From an uncultured bacterium (GTDB taxonomy: Bacteria; Zixibacteria; MSB-5A5; UBA10806): DNA of 64,000 bases. Shown here in pieces: positions 21,001 to 30,000 of the stretch. Each line of letters starts with the position of its first letter. Position 1 is the first letter of the stretch. The stretch spans positions 64,001 through 128,000 of the forward strand of contig CBEUCH010000004.1 of NCBI GenBank assembly GCA_965541585.1, in the 5' to 3' direction. The position numbers are program-made.

Positions 21001-24000
21001 ATCCTTGGGGTAGATAATTTCGGATGGCTTGGCAGAGGTCAGAAGAGAACGAATTTCACCCAGTATACCCCGGAGATAACCCTCATGATAGCGATTTTCC
21101 TTGAGACCGGGATCGAAGAAGAAACGATTGGTCACCCTTACCTTGAATTCGTCGAAGAGCTCGTAGCTTCCCAGAATCGATGCCGCACCCAGCATCTCCG
21201 TAATGATTACGAAATCATAAACACTTTTTGCGAGTATATCCTCGTATTCTTCGATGGCTGCGGCCAGGCTGTGCCGGCCGACATGTTCCGAGAGGTGGAA
21301 ATGAAGACGTGTGGCCTTTTTCAACATCTCGCCCGATAACCGTCCGATAGCCCGATTGAGGAGTTCTGAATTTTCAGTTTGGCGGTAAACTATCCCGAGA
21401 TCTATATCGTCCTGGTCGGCTCTGGTGCCGACACCCATCATAACGAATTCCGGTACTTTTTCATCATCGAGAAATATCCCCAGCAATCGCTCCATATAGC
21501 ATTTTGTCAGATAACGAAACATCCGCCCTGCTTCAAGCATCAGTTTTCTGCCAGACAACCAGCGCCGGCCACCGGCGGCTAATTCGAGTTTGACGATATC
21601 CACCATGCGCAAATTCAACGATAGAAACTGCAGGGCGTAGTAACATCCGAGGAAATTCAATTTCTCTTTTGTATCCGGTGCCGCCTGCAGCACCGTATCC
21701 ATCTCGCCCGGGATTTCCGTCGAGTAACTCCAGAGGTGCACCCTGTCACGCATCCCCTTCAACTCTAAAGATGACGTTAAGGCTTCGATATTGGCAGATA
21801 TGATATGAAGATATTTACGGTGATAATTGCCCAGGGCAGCGGTTCTTTCAGAGAGGCGTACCAACTGGTCTTTCATTTGATCCAGCCCTTAGATTTGCAA
21901 TATAGGTCGGTCATCGGAAAATGATCGGGATCTTCCCCCTGTTGGTCAGCCGGCGGCATCCAAACCGGCATCATACGCCTTGATATAGATATCCTCGGAG
22001 TTTTTGGGAATACGGGCCAGAATCGCCTGCTGAATTGATTTCTCGCCGACTACGTCGTTTACACCGGCAAAGAAACCCAGGGCTACGATATTGGTCATGG
22101 CGGGCTTGCCGCATTCCTTTTCGGCAATTTCCATAAAAGGTATCGAATATACTTTCCGGTCTTTATTCTCACCCGATATCTTTACATGCGAATCTACTGC
22201 AACAATCCCGTCCGGACGGAGATCATCTATATGCTTATCGAAAGCCTGTTGAGTCAGCGCCACCAGGAAATCGATGGTCTCGGCCCTGGGGTAATCGATG
22301 GCCTCATCGGAGATGATTATCTCGGCGCGGCTGGCGCTACCCCTGGCCTCCGGACCATAGGAGCAGCTTTCAGCGGCGTTGTTGTTATCATAGATAGCGG
22401 CCGCCTCCGCTATTATTCTGGCGGCCTGGATGAGCCCGGCCCCCCCGCCGCCGCTCAATCTTATGCTATATCTGAAAGCCATTTCAATCGCCTACATCCC
22501 GTGCTCTGCAGCTTTGGAAGCGCCGTCGGGAACCCCTTCCCGACGGGACCAAGGCTGTCAGGAAAGGGTTCCTGACAGCTTTACCAAATCCCATATAGTC
22601 AATATATGACCAATGAAGCCTTTATTCAATGGCTAAAAAAGATCAGCGAGGCGGGTCAGAAATATATACGCTGGTGCGCGAGGATGTGCGCTAACAACAA
22701 AAAGAAAGCGCCAGGTGCAAAGACCTGGCGCCATAATTGACCGGACAGGCCGATCAGCCCACAACTTTATTGCGATACTTTTCTTACAGCCTTGGCCTTC
22801 AAGCTTGGCATGACCAGCGGCCGATCTCCACCGCCCGGCAGCAATCTACCTTCACCCGGACAATCCACACAGCCGGCAAGCGGCTCGGGGCCTCTGTAGG
22901 CCGCGATCGACTTGACAACGTCGGTAAGCTCAAAGCTCGTGCAGTTTCCATCCGCATCGGCCGAAGGCTTATACTCGGGATTCGCCTCCGTGCAAAAGCA
23001 GACGTAACCGGGTTGATCATAGCCTCTATAGTAAGCGATCATCTTGACAACGTCCGTAAGCTGCCGCGCGCTGCCGTCTTCGTCGCTGTCGCCAGGTTCG
23101 TAGATGCAGTCGCCGCCACCGGAGGGCAGACCGACCCAGTAACCGGCATCGACGGTATAGTTTTCCGATGACGACCGTCCCACTATGGCCTGCCCGATAG
23201 TGCCATCAGCCTGATGGCTCTCCGATTCCGCATGCCCTCCGCCGGAGGCGATTACAGACCAGTCGATCTGGTAATTCTGGGCACTGGCTAATGATGCTAT
23301 GAACGATAACAAGATTAATATCTTCAAAACATTCATCTGTCCCTCCTGTTAACCGGGCATTTGTTGCCCCCAAGAGGTGTCCGTGACGAACAAGGTGTAT
23401 TCATTTTGTCACCCAGGCACTGTTTTCGTAGAAGTTGAACTGGTTGTTCGTCGTATTGTAAATGATCATGCCGTTAACCGCAGTCAGGGCGTTCCTCTGG
23501 GCGGTGGTCATCCTGGGCAGGATAAACGCTCCTGTAGTCGAGCTGACATCCAATGCACCCTGGGGGCTTGCAGTCCCGATGCCTACATTGCCGTCCTGCC
23601 GTAAAACCATCACCTCATTATTGGCCTCATTTCGGAAATATAGCTGGGAGATTCCGGGTAAGCCAATGAACCATTTCTGGGTTCCGCCGGCCATCAATTT
23701 ATAGCCCGACATGCCGCCAGTTTGCCCATTAACTGCGATATACCGAGTCCCAAAACCATCTCCTACCTCAAGTGTATGGCTCGGCGTGGTCGTTCCGATG
23801 CCAACCCCTCCCGAAGCGCGGATGAGGAACTGATCCGCACCGGTGGAGACGAAATCGGCGTCGGTCTGGTCGGCCCAGACGAAAGCACCGTTGTGGTTGG
23901 CTTGGGCCCGGCGCCCCGCGGCAAAGGAGTAAGTGCCACCCGCTATATTTCGGGTTCCTCCGGGAACCATAGAGTGATTCCCAATGGCCGAGTTGGAATC

Positions 24001-27000: not shown

Positions 27001-30000
27001 CTGCAGGAGGATATTGCCAATTCAATTGGCCGTTTCCATCAGTCGTCATTGCCTGTCCGATTGCTCCATCTGATGTCGGAAACTCATACCCATCGGTCTC
27101 ATCGCCAAAGCGAATATGCGGCATGTCAACCATAAATGTGGAACCCTGAGTAAGTATGCTATTGATGCCAAATAGGTAAGAATTATCTCCTGTTTCGGTA
27201 ATAGCGTTTGAAGATCCTCCAAGGATCGCAGAATAATCGCCGCCGGCGATATTGCTATTCCCCCCCGCGACCGTGGCGTGATTACCGCTGGCTATGTTGT
27301 CAAGTCCCCCGCCAACGGTGCCATGATCACCACCCACATAATTTCCTTCGCCTCCGCCGATAGTAGGAGCAATACTAACTGAAACCGTATCGCCCGACGT
27401 GTTCTCAATCCCTCCGCCAACTGTGCCGTAAGTGCCTATTGATCTGTTCTGCCTACCGCCGCTAATCGCAGCATATTCTCCGGACGGGATATTTGCGTAT
27501 CCTCCGCCGACAAAACTGTTTTCTCCGATTGCCAGGTTGATGTTTCCCCCCGCGACTGTCGAATGCCATGATGTAGCGTTGTTCCACTTACCTCCGCCAA
27601 TGGTGCTGAAGTCACCGCTAGCGATGTTGCCGGTTCCGCCACCCACAACGGCATTCTCGCCGTCTGCAGTATTAGTGTTTCCGCCACCGATAGCGCTTCT
27701 ATATCCGCCGGCTGAGTTGTCATCCCCGCCGCAAACCGCGCTGACATCACCGCCGGCATTGTTCGAATATCCGCCACTAATCGTGCTACTTGTTCCGCCG
27801 GCAATGTTCCCGGATCCTCCCCCGACGGTACTAGCTGTCCCGTTAGCTGTATTATTGCTGCCAGCCACGAAAGCGTTGCCTCCGGAATTGGTGTTGCCGG
27901 GGCCGATGGTCGCTTTGCCGGTCACCCGGATATCACCATCAACGTCCAGGTCGCTTTGAATGGCTACATCACCTGAAATCGTTCCGCCGCTTGCCCCGTC
28001 TACCGTACTTATGCGGTTGGCGTAAGCGACCGAGACGATTCTGGTGCGCGGCACAAGTTCGTCATCGCCTTCGACCTGAACGCCGAGCCACCGGACCGGG
28101 TCGTTGAAGACGTCATCAGTGATGGGAGTGCTTTCTCCCAATGAAACATCGAACCGGCCGCTCTCATCGAACTCCACTAGTTGCGTTTCCTGCCAGCTAG
28201 TAGTCCCGTCAGATGGGGAGTCGTAGATAGTGAAAGTAACATTGACCGGTTCTGTGACCGGATCACCCTCGGAATCCAAAAGGACTCCCTGGTAGCCGAT
28301 CAGCGTCGGCACGTCAGCCACGACGGCAGACACTGTCATAAAAACTACTGCCGCCATGATGAGAATCATTAAGAGTCTGTCTCTCATGTTTCTCCTCCTT
28401 CAATATATGGTTATGAGGTTTATAAACCGCACCAGGACATTCCTTGTAAACCTGTCTTCTTCAAAGCACGATTGGGGAACAACGTTTCGGCATGTAGAGC
28501 CGACGCTGCGTTTATTTAGCGAAGTACTATGATGGGTGTCGCATCATTCGTTGTCAGTCAATTTCAATGTCAATGAAAAATAGGCATTATTATCGACTCT
28601 GTCAAGAGAAAACGGCGGCTCTTTTCAAACGCATCTCTATTGCTGGGGGAGGGTGAGTCCACCGACTCATTTGCTTATGCATATCAAATCCACGCCATAG
28701 ATCCATGTTTCTTTCATTGGACAATAACTCTATTTTCCTATAGACTTATCTTACTGATTTTGTTAAATTGCAGCCGGGAACGTAGTCTGGTTTTAGGCAA
28801 CGAAGGTTACGAGATAGGTTAAAAGCCTTTTGATAGATAAAAAATCTCATAGACAAGATGGCCTGGTTGCCGGTTGGTAAAATTATTAGACGTTTTGAGA
28901 AAGAATTCACAAACATAGTGATGGTGATCTTTATTAAAATGATTTCCAGGCAATGTTAAATGCGGAGAGTTCTATGAAATACTGGAGGACTCCGTTGGAT
29001 ATCGACAAGCTCAAGATCCCCAGGGGCGAACTTCATATTATCAAAGAGCGATGCAAGGGCTGTGCCTTCTGCGTGGAATATTGCCCCAAGGACGTTCTGG
29101 TGCTTTCGGAGGAGTTTAATGCCAAGGGGTACCATCCACCGGTAGCTGTCAAACCGGAGAACTGCGTCAATTGTGATCTTTGCGAGATGCTCTGTCCGGA
29201 TTTCGCCATTTATTGCCTGCGAATTGAAGACGAAAAGAAGGGGGTGCCTGAATGAAAGCTAACCCTGAAGATGTTCTCACCGGTTCTCATTATCTCGACG
29301 GCAACCATGCCTGCGCCGAGGGAGGCATAGCTGCGGGATGTAAGTTTTTCGCCGGTTACCCCATCACGCCATCCACCGAGATTGCCGAGAGGGTTTCCAG
29401 ACGGTTTCCCCTGATCGGCGGTGTCTTCGTCCAGATGGAGGATGAGCTGGCCAGCATGGCGGCCATACTGGGGGCATCATCGGGCGGTGTAAAATCGATG
29501 AGTTGTACATCCGGACCCGGATTTTCATTGATGATGGAAAATTTCGGTCTGGGGATAATGACGGAGGTCCCCTGTGTGCTGGTCAACGTCCAGCGCGGCG
29601 GCCCCTCTACCGGTCTGCCCACCCTTCCCGGTCAGGCCGATATGATGCAGGCTCGCTGGGGATCACACGGAGACTACGAGGTGATAGCCCTGGCGCCGGA
29701 TTCGCCCCAGGAATCGTTCGAGTTGACTATTCACGCTTTTAACCTCTCCGAGAAATACCGGATGCCGGTTTTGATCATGTCCGATGAGTGTGTCGGACAT
29801 ATGACCGAGAAGGTAATCATACCCCCCGCGGAAGAGATCGATCTGATAGAACGTCGATACACCGATAAGAAACCCGGAGAAGCCTGGCCTTATCACGAAA
29901 ATGGGGATCAAATAGCGCCGATGCTGCCGGTCGGGGAAGGATACAAGTTTCATATTACGGGGCTTACCCACGATCACAGAGGTTATCCTGTTATCAATGC

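What a model noticed while it worked through the whole genome (the two positions that open the first line are those of the whole stretch)
22767..28387. Bdellovibrio-type MAT fibre repertoire (13 genes) with a co-encoded dockerin-tailed adaptor whose 55-aa peptide caps the [...]
Thirteen genes (g00956, g00958, g02047, g02160, g02282, g02284+83, g02285, g02286, g02334, g02823-25, g02865+43) encode signal peptide + one conserved ~110-aa N-domain + variable fibre bodies, 7 ending in an S74 chaperone: a MAT-like fibre repertoire outside any prophage. Three ~190-aa genes (g00955, g00957, g02281) lie directly behind fibre genes and consist of a ~55-aa peptide plus the lineage's dockerin; the peptide is predicted to bind the N-domain trimer 1:3, giving a candidate for the unidentified surface anchor of MAT fibres.
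Evidence so far: Local HMM finds exactly 13 N-domains and 3 adaptor peptides; arrays 958-957, 956-955, 2286-2285-2284/83-2282-2281. All 9 of 9 N-domains tested hit NCBIfam Bdello_MAT_N weakly (best E 2e-7, under the cut-off), no Pfam family; the profile finds 58,303 50%-clusters at E<=1e-3, the peptide 1,248. In other genomes 10 of 12 adaptor loci hold a MAT-N or S74 gene, mostly right upstream. ESMFold2, 3 N-domains + peptide: ipSAE 0.92, best of 3 controls 0.01, runs agree in >=96% of contacts, partner pLDDT >=89, peptide touches all three copies; the mark was reached by 116/157 solved and 2/215 mismatched pairs.
(Added by a program. Inside this text positions count along the whole contig: contig position 64,001 is position 1 of the stretch shown here. 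"Call 12" and the like, gene names such as g00115 and contig names such as C1 are that model's own, and its searches are not shown. The text may have been shortened before it was handed on; [...] marks where a part breaks off. The agent that wrote the report below was given it as the finding of a first reader that could run no searches.)

Follow-up and report, generated by a model that had tools for sequence, protein, structure and literature searches.

The report
Swappable clamp mounting trimeric surface fibres
A small partner protein probably grips the base of phage-like adhesive fibres and lends them whatever surface anchor the lineage uses, including the tip of a newly described pilus of ultrasmall parasitic bacteria; this rests on genome comparisons and a structure prediction, not on an experiment.

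Summary
Confirmed and extended. The window holds two fibre–adaptor pairs. The genome (close adaptor relatives are labelled Zixibacteria) has 13 fibre N-domains and four adaptors, not three; the fourth ends in a type IX secretion (T9SS) tail instead of a dockerin.

The ~50-aa adaptor peptide follows the N-domain across phyla. In 61 Chloroflexota genomes the peptide is in 10 and the N-domain in 9 of those same 10. The peptide is fused to lineage-specific sorting tails, and none of the 13 fibres carries one.

It is homologous to the N-terminus of PamT, the tip pilin of the CPR Pam pilus (hhalign probability 98%). N-domain fibres follow pam genes in 3 of 6 informative loci. A CPR pair (three N-domains plus the PamT peptide) scored 0.82 against a best control of 0.01.

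Best reading: a pseudo-threefold clamp that mounts trimeric fibres on interchangeable anchors.

Limits: I did not re-fold the window's own pair. No N-domain reaches the Bdellovibrio MAT family cut-off. Bdellovibrio was untestable here, and predation is unsupported. The scan noted the Bacteroidota T9SS version, and Pam loci beside fibres, earlier on other DNA; the PamT–clamp link was not among those notes.

The parts
26045..28387 (-). Fibre 1, 780 aa: signal peptide, N-domain, beta-roll body, C-terminal S74 chaperone and coiled-coil-like end
28004..28315 (-). N-domain of fibre 1 (residues 25-128): Ig-like beta-sandwich, predicted clamp-binding base
   Evidence: weak Bdello_MAT_N hit, 29.8 bits; AF2 pLDDT 86; interface mapped from the CPR model
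27248..27886 (-). Gly-rich beta-roll body resembling the UspA1 head (residues 168-380)
   Evidence: 3pr7, E 2.8e-22
26219..26371 (-). Peptidase_S74 intramolecular chaperone (residues 673-723)
   Evidence: PF13884, 36.8 bits, cut-off 22
25465..26031 (-). Adaptor 1, 188 aa: signal peptide + clamp peptide + dockerin-fold tail; starts 13 bases after the fibre 1 stop codon
25831..25974 (-). Clamp peptide of adaptor 1 (residues 20-67), three imperfect repeats about 19 residues apart; homologous to the PamT N-terminus
25570..25809 (-). Dockerin-fold tail of adaptor 1 (residues 75-154)
   Evidence: 14 of 16 VIA-align rows are dockerins; best Z 8.6, rmsd 1.5, 61 aligned; no Pfam hit
23401..25137 (-). 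Fibre 2, 578 aa: signal peptide, N-domain, beta-roll body, non-S74 tip
   Evidence: weak PHROG tail-fibre hits in the body only
24754..25065 (-). N-domain of fibre 2 (residues 25-128), 84% identical to that of fibre 1 over the aligned stretch
22767..23336 (-). Adaptor 2, 189 aa, same design as adaptor 1
23136..23279 (-). Clamp peptide of adaptor 2 (residues 20-67)
28388..28618 (-). Upstream region duplicated in front of fibre 2 (25138-25362); no Rfam match

Best explanation
The pair is a two-part display system. The fibre is a secreted homotrimer: conserved N-domain at the base, variable body and tip, often a self-cleaving S74 chaperone at the C-terminus (trimer and cleavage inferred from S74/MAT knowledge). 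Because its C-terminus is the tip or is cut off, it cannot carry a C-terminal sorting signal, and none of the 13 fibres has one (shown). A small secreted adaptor supplies the signal in trans. Its ~50-aa peptide, unfolded alone, wraps over the three N-domains with one imperfect repeat per protomer (predicted), and its tail is whatever anchor the lineage uses (shown for the fusions; anchoring inferred). In this genome three adaptors end in a dockerin, which would dock on cohesin proteins that themselves end in a T9SS-type tail, and one ends in a T9SS-type tail directly; four adaptors would serve 13 fibres promiscuously (inferred). In CPR bacteria the same peptide is the N-terminus of PamT, so the fibre trimer would sit on the Pam pilus tip as its variable adhesin (predicted). 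The likely function is adhesion to surfaces, particles or other cells; no ligand is identified.
For: Adjacency: an N-domain gene lies directly upstream in 13 of 20 same-phylum loci; one is present in 56 of 80 loci from other phyla, and 14 of the 24 misses have <2.5 kb upstream; background is 2.8%. Genome-level coupling: in 61 Chloroflexota genomes the peptide is in 10, the N-domain in 9 of those 10, and 51 have neither; 32 of 41 peptide hits lie within 5.1 kb of an N-domain (the centre genome was chosen for having the peptide, and kin are not independent). In this phylum the 3 of 151 genomes without an N-domain also had no peptide match. In the G152 phylum all 5 peptide genomes have the N-domain. 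Tails: Dockerin_1, FlgD_ig/CHU_C, Por_Secre_tail and IPTL-CTERM by Pfam, plus short lineage-typical and transmembrane-like tails read from the sequences. This genome has 168 T9SS-type and 45 dockerin-type tails, none on a fibre; 3 cohesin proteins, all with a T9SS-type tail; and SprA_N and PorV hits over cut-off. PamT homology: hhalign probability 98.0, E 2e-13; a CPR-only peptide profile finds the three dockerin adaptors at E 7e-11 to 1e-9, and a CPR-only N-domain profile finds 13 of 13. Complex (CPR locus L150, three N-domains + PamT peptide): score 0.82, best of 3 controls 0.01; the mark was reached by 116 of 157 solved and 2 of 215 mismatched pairs; runs agree in >=92% of contacts; partner pLDDT >=79; the peptide touches all three copies, at sites that include the invariant Gln and Pro-Arg. 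The mapped interface is more conserved than the rest of the domain (0.62 vs 0.50; 105 of 10,000 random sets reach it). The peptide alone has pLDDT 33-46.
Against: No experiment. The complex was folded for a CPR homologue with my own alignments, which included window sequences, in a 3:1 layout unlike the calibration. Coupling is not absolute: 7 of 20 same-phylum adaptors are orphans; 24 of 148 N-domain genomes of the phylum had no match to a single-sequence peptide query; in the G152 phylum 8 of 13 N-domain genomes had no peptide at E<=1e-4, and 3 of these 8 still had none in the fetched loci; 3 of 6 informative PamT loci have no fibre within about 7.5 kb downstream. The internal repeat is clear in CPR (10 of 2,000 shuffles) but weak elsewhere (89, 108 and 176 of 2,000). 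Some peptides occur in tandem or on large enzymes. How a dockerin-tailed adaptor and a trimer cross the outer membrane is unexplained.
Confidence: 0.72

Rival explanations
1. The peptide binds the trimer only briefly, as a trimerisation chaperone or export pilot, and the fibre is then released or held by something else.
For: T9SS-type tails are export signals as much as anchors (established knowledge). Four adaptors for 13 fibres suits a catalytic role. The binding prediction cannot tell lasting from transient binding.
Against: Tails include plain transmembrane-like ends, dockerins and a pilin domain that is built into a filament (PMC13278184), which are retention devices. Copy numbers of peptide and N-domain rise together in Chloroflexota (Spearman 0.72, 10 genomes). 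The model has about 300 contacts.
Confidence: 0.15
2. The peptide caps the N-domain but is not the anchor: it is a regulator or cross-linker, and the fibre has its own envelope receptor, which would be the element Bdellovibrio uses.
For: Some genomes have N-domains and no detected peptide. Some adaptors carry two or three peptides in tandem. The Bdellovibrio model is 162 positions long and only positions ~2-93 match here.
Against: The peptide covers the most conserved surface of the N-domain, and nearly all adaptors end in a sorting-type tail.
Confidence: 0.07
3. No direct contact: the genes cluster because both encode surface proteins, and the peptide is a generic Ser/Gly-rich leader with another partner.
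For: Orphan adaptors among housekeeping genes; fusions to CHAP, M23, NosD and metallophosphoesterase proteins; the peptide is short and compositionally biased.
Against: Near one-to-one presence and absence across genomes; alternating fibre-adaptor arrays; controls at 0.00-0.01; the PamT model hits exactly the three dockerin adaptors here and 0 of 14 control genomes.
Confidence: 0.06

Closest known systems
MAT (mosaic adhesive trimer) fibres of Bdellovibrio bacteriovorus (PMC10769870; NCBIfam NF053851)
   Same: Multi-gene repertoire of signal peptide + conserved N-domain + mosaic body, with S74 and non-S74 members; weak N-domain similarity (10 of 13). [quoted passage not shown]
   Different: All N-domains score below the cut-off and match only about half of the model; other phylum; predation not shown. 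A co-encoded adaptor is not mentioned in the passages and Discussion I read, and its presence in Bdellovibrio is untested.
PamT, predicted tip pilin of the CPR Pam pilus (PMC13278184; NCBIfam NF058579)
   Same: The PamT N-terminal ~50 residues are homologous to the clamp peptide. The preprint notes a 'tail fibre-like protein' in the pam neighbourhood.
   Different: The window proteins have a dockerin, not the pilin domain (29 bits vs cut-off 240). [quoted passage not shown]
Cohesin-dockerin anchoring (type I dockerin, PF00404)
   Same: The tail folds as a dockerin, and cohesin proteins exist in the genome.
   Different: No cellulosome is implied; the dockerin is Cys-rich and below Pfam detection; binding to these cohesins is untested.
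T4-superfamily gp38 adhesin on the gp37 fibre trimer (recalled; PMC3157838 seen only as a search listing)
   Same: One chain capping a homotrimeric fibre (recalled).
   Different: gp38 caps the distal tip and is itself the receptor binder; here the cap is at the base and carries an anchor. No PHROG or phage-collection hit for the peptide or the N-domain.
Trimeric autotransporter adhesins (UspA1/YadA type)
   Same: Beta-roll head repeats.
   Different: No C-terminal barrel anchor was detected by Pfam or NCBIfam; polarity is reversed, with the conserved base N-terminal.

Membership tests
Bdellovibrio MAT fibres | N-domain over the NF053851 curated cut-off (60 bits) | tested here: not met
   best 33.7 bits; 10 of 13 hit at E<=0.01, 0 of 13 over cut-off
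Bdellovibrio MAT fibres | Signal peptide + conserved N-domain + mosaic variable body in many paralogues | tested here: met
   13 paralogues with patchwork similarity; signal peptides read from the sequence, no predictor run
Bdellovibrio MAT fibres | S74 and non-S74 subclasses | tested here: met
   7 S74 hits, 2 of them by an inferred contig join
Bdellovibrio MAT fibres | Homotrimer | tested here: inconclusive
   implied by S74; trimer modelled only for a CPR homologue
Bdellovibrio MAT fibres | Surface display and prey recognition | not testable with these tools
   needs cells
PamT (window adaptors) | Whole-protein score over 240 bits, with the Pam pilin C-domain | tested here: not met
   29 bits, peptide region only
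PamT (window adaptors) | N-terminal segment homologous to that of PamT | tested here: met
   hhalign probability 98.0 over 48 columns; reciprocal profile
PamT (CPR loci L144, L146, L150, L158, L160, L177) | NF058579 over cut-off | tested here: met
   271-310 bits in 6 of 8 tested; L156 and L162 below
Type I dockerin | Pfam PF00404 match | tested here: not met
   no hit for either window adaptor; many relatives do hit
Type I dockerin | Two-helix dockerin fold | tested here: met
   Z 8.6, rmsd 1.5, 61 aligned; 14 of 16 rows are dockerins
Type I dockerin | Binds a cohesin | not tested
Phage or prophage tail-fibre module | N-domain or partner found in phage families or phage records; phage genes in the flanks | tested here: not met
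   no PHROG hit for peptide or N-domain; none in the phage collection; peptide and PamT queries found none in viral contigs; flanks look like ferredoxin oxidoreductase genes (labels recalled). No genome-wide prophage scan was run.
Trimeric autotransporter adhesin | C-terminal outer-membrane barrel anchor | tested here: not met
   no such family hit in the two window fibres

The most novel reading that the evidence does not exclude
A single ancient clamp (pseudo-threefold peptide on a trimeric N-domain) is a general bacterial route for mounting phage-like fibres. It plugs them into unrelated anchoring systems in at least six phyla (dockerin-cohesin, T9SS, short lineage-specific sorting tails, membrane tails, the CPR Pam pilus), makes the fibre the host-recognition tip of the Pam pilus, and, in diverged form, is also the missing anchor of Bdellovibrio MAT fibres.
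Probability: 0.35. Interest if true: 0.92.

Novelty: new variant of a known kind. Interest (0 to 1): 0.8.

Why it matters
Two papers leave a gap that this fills with a testable candidate: what holds the conserved base of MAT-type fibres (PMC10769870), and how Pam pili of CPR parasites recognise hosts (PMC13278184). It explains how a trimer whose C-terminus is a tip or is cleaved off can still use C-terminal sorting systems, and it gives a role to a family of thousands of unannotated small proteins. If binding holds, the pair is also a compact 3:1 display tag.

Tried and rejected
Searches that found nothing:
- Peptide against PDB sequences (0 at E<=10), plasmids and phages.
- N-domain against plasmids and phages.
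- Viral contigs: two protein queries gave none; a motif scan gave 13 loci, 0 real.
- Rfam on 22400-29000: 0.
- ESM Atlas: peptide best score 0.87, a lead only; N-domain 0.92-0.93 to unnamed clusters.

Fold searches: the N-domain matches only generic beta-sandwiches (best Z 8.0, rmsd 2.5, 82 aligned; viral library unclear), which neither names nor excludes a family. The peptide part was not aligned.

Literature: no description of the adaptor turned up in seven searches. The 2026 Bdellovibrio review passages name no MAT anchor. The CASP16 paper's Bdellovibrio target is unrelated. The library lacks most subscription papers.

Rejected readings: prophage origin; autotransporter; 'dockerin is the defining tail'; strict one adaptor per fibre.

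Left open: whether Bdellovibrio has the peptide, gene order in Bacteroidota genomes, and genome-level counts for CPR, as no handle to those phyla was obtained. The window's own pair was not folded.
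Full report
OBSERVATION. Positions 22767-28387 hold four minus-strand genes: a 780-aa fibre with a C-terminal S74 chaperone, a 188-aa adaptor, a 578-aa fibre without S74 and a 189-aa adaptor. The two units are a tandem duplication in which the adaptor (90.8% over 520 nt) and the promoter plus N-domain (80.7% over 684 nt) were kept while the fibre bodies diverged. 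A close adaptor homologue is named Zixibacteria by its source. The genome has 13 N-domain ORFs with every profile I used and 7 S74 domains, two of them in contig-end pieces that I infer belong to split fibres. Besides the three dockerin-tailed adaptors there is a fourth, G000 C26:26027-26587, with a diverged peptide and a T9SS-type tail, divergent from a fibre gene.

THE FIBRES ARE MAT-LIKE, NOT PROVEN MAT. Bdello_MAT_N hits 10 of 13 N-domains, best 33.7 bits against a cut-off of 60, over about the first half of the model; the window's shorter fibre gives no hit. The N-domain folds as a small beta-sandwich (pLDDT 86) with only generic structural neighbours. The body of fibre 1 resembles the UspA1 head. 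Neither N-domain nor peptide matches PHROGs or the phage collection. The N-domain is in 148 of 151 genomes of the phylum, at 1-27 scored copies, so it is a normal part of these cells and is no sign of predation by itself.

THE ADAPTOR IS A PEPTIDE WITH A SWAPPABLE TAIL. Alone, the ~50-aa peptide is low-confidence (pLDDT 33-46) while the tail is confident and has a dockerin fold (14 of 16 rows; Z 8.6, rmsd 1.5, 61 aligned), although Pfam misses it. A 14-sequence profile finds 5,419 clusters at E<=1e-3. I read most of the best 150 (the output was cut) and scanned 63 of the longer ones with Pfam. The peptide mostly follows a signal peptide and precedes a dockerin, FlgD_ig/CHU_C, Por_Secre_tail, IPTL-CTERM, a transmembrane-like end, or short tails typical of Verrucomicrobiota or Chloroflexota (lineage tied to record titles; these short tails have no Pfam family, and their sorting role is my inference). 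Some proteins carry two or three peptides or are fused to enzymes. In this genome 168 proteins have a T9SS-type tail and 45 a dockerin-type tail, but none of the 13 fibres. Three cohesin proteins all end in a T9SS-type tail, and SprA_N and PorV score over cut-off.

PEPTIDE AND N-DOMAIN TRAVEL TOGETHER. An N-domain gene lies directly upstream in 13 of 20 same-phylum loci taken from the top peptide hits. One is present in 56 of 80 loci mostly from Verrucomicrobiota and Planctomycetota (55 of 80 with a profile trained only on this genome); 14 of the 24 misses have under 2.5 kb upstream; the background in this genome is 2.8%. Several loci alternate fibre and adaptor. In 61 Chloroflexota genomes the peptide is in 10, the N-domain in 9 of those, and 51 have neither; 32 of 41 peptide hits are within 5.1 kb of an N-domain. 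The centre genome was chosen for having the peptide and relatives are not independent, so the Fisher value (6e-10) overstates. In the phylum of a Bryobacteraceae record, 5 of 61 have the peptide, all with the N-domain, but 13 of 61 have the N-domain. Of 15 loci fetched from the 8 extra genomes, 8 (in 5 genomes) have a diverged peptide gene directly beside the fibre at weak local E-values (4e-8 to 1e-1); 3 genomes showed none. Seven of the 20 same-phylum adaptors are orphans, which fits action in trans but weakens strict coupling.

THE PEPTIDE IS THE N-TERMINUS OF PamT. NCBIfam's PamT model hits both window adaptors over the peptide, exactly the three dockerin adaptors in the genome, and 0 of 14 control genomes. 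Profiles of the two peptide sets align with probability 98.0 (the scan motif came from the last third of the peptide, which favours that part). A CPR-only peptide profile finds the three dockerin adaptors, and a CPR-only N-domain profile finds all 13 fibres here. In 3 of 6 loci with at least 6 kb downstream, an N-domain fibre closes the pam-type operon; only L150 of these three has PamT and PamR over cut-off; L158, L160 and L177 have no such fibre nearby. The L150 N-domain has 249 long homologues, labelled Saccharibacteria or Patescibacteria for most that carry a taxon name, with kelch, carbohydrate-binding, S74 or other bodies. The Pam preprint (PMC13278184; parts 1-3 of 7 and keyword passages read) calls PamT a truncated Ig-like tip pilin, notes a tail fibre-like gene in the neighbourhood, and lists host recognition as open. 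I did not see its supplement, nor Supplementary Tables 3-4 of PMC10769870; either could bear on novelty.

STRUCTURAL LOGIC. In all four peptide profiles the best self-offset is 19 or 39 residues, with the second best also a multiple of about 19 in two of them. This is significant for CPR (10 of 2,000 shuffles; 16 of 2,000 using only columns outside my motif) and weak for the others (89, 108 and 176 of 2,000). I spent the one complex job on the CPR pair as an independent test: three L150 N-domains plus the PamT peptide scored 0.82, best of 3 controls 0.01. The mark was reached by 116 of 157 solved and 2 of 215 mismatched pairs; runs agree in at least 92% of contacts and partner pLDDT is at least 79. 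These counts hold only roughly, since I used my own alignments (which included window sequences) and a 3:1 layout. The peptide touches all three copies, with residues 14-17, 32-34 and 41/48 closest to different protomers, at N-domain residues 6-17 and 115-128 that include the invariant Gln and Pro-Arg. The equivalent positions are more conserved than the rest of the domain in a 92-sequence alignment (0.62 vs 0.50; 105 of 10,000 random sets), though conserved core residues could add to this. I found no solved like complex by sequence or fold.

MECHANISM. Shown: gene pairing, tail exchange, absence of tails on fibres, homology to PamT, dockerin fold, and the presence of cohesins and T9SS parts. 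Predicted: 1:3 capping. Inferred: trimerisation and S74 release, anchoring through dockerin-cohesin or T9SS, promiscuous use of four adaptors by 13 fibres, adhesion as the function. I put the clamp-and-anchor model at about 0.72, a transient chaperone or export pilot at 0.15, a cap that is not the anchor at 0.07, and no contact at 0.06.

NOVELTY. The fibre type is known (PMC10769870; keyword passages and Discussion read) and PamT is named, but I found no paper describing the adaptor family or its link to either (most subscription papers are not in the library). Earlier AI notes of this scan describe the Bacteroidota T9SS version (e1-4767648, e1-5091363) and Pam loci beside fibre-like adhesins (e1-1551253, e1-4823516). 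I saw them after forming the idea; they are not independent evidence, and none of the lines shown links PamT to the clamp. Verdict: real, wider than reported, and directly testable.

Noticed in passing
G000 C26:26027-26587 (-), L285:528-1088: Fourth adaptor with a diverged peptide and a T9SS-type tail, divergent from a fibre gene.
   Followed up: yes
G000 C1:1600-4299, C4:3305-5992, C13:48159-49088: Three cohesin-bearing secreted proteins, all ending in a T9SS-type tail; the two large ones seem to hold a dockerin-like segment between two cohesin-like parts. Candidate docking points for the 45 dockerin-tailed proteins, none of which has a T9SS-type tail.
   Followed up: partly
G000 C13:109585-111111 (-): N-domain gene whose body is a run of Cys/Asp-rich repeats rather than a fibre, directly before an adaptor; the N-domain may mount non-fibre cargo too.
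   Followed up: no
G000 C16:42371-57100: Run of about nine ~300-aa paralogues that each end in the dockerin-type tail.
   Followed up: no
window 25138-25362 and 28388-28618: About 230 bases upstream of both fibre genes are conserved between the duplicated units; no Rfam match.
   Followed up: partly
L157:634-6120: Metagenome locus where the N-domain lies at the C-terminal end or inside several proteins, and the peptide lies inside a larger protein: a rearranged version.
   Followed up: no
G170: A Chloroflexota genome with 30 N-domain and 22 peptide matches.
   Followed up: no
L272, L273, L278, L279 (G251, G267, G237): N-domain fibres with no detectable peptide gene nearby; candidates for a different or more diverged anchor.
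   Followed up: partly
L144:1971-3236, L146:5898-6926, L150:7104-8150, L158:5165-6205, L160:6552-7727, L177:6670-7725: A similar ~350-aa gene with a fibre-tip-like C-terminal end lies divergent from pamT in all six over-cut-off PamT loci.
   Followed up: no
window 17458-22482 and 28953-36583: Flanks look like heterodisulfide reductase-type and 2-oxoacid:ferredoxin oxidoreductase genes (labels recalled from the sequences); the fibre cassette sits between two parts of such a cluster.
   Followed up: no
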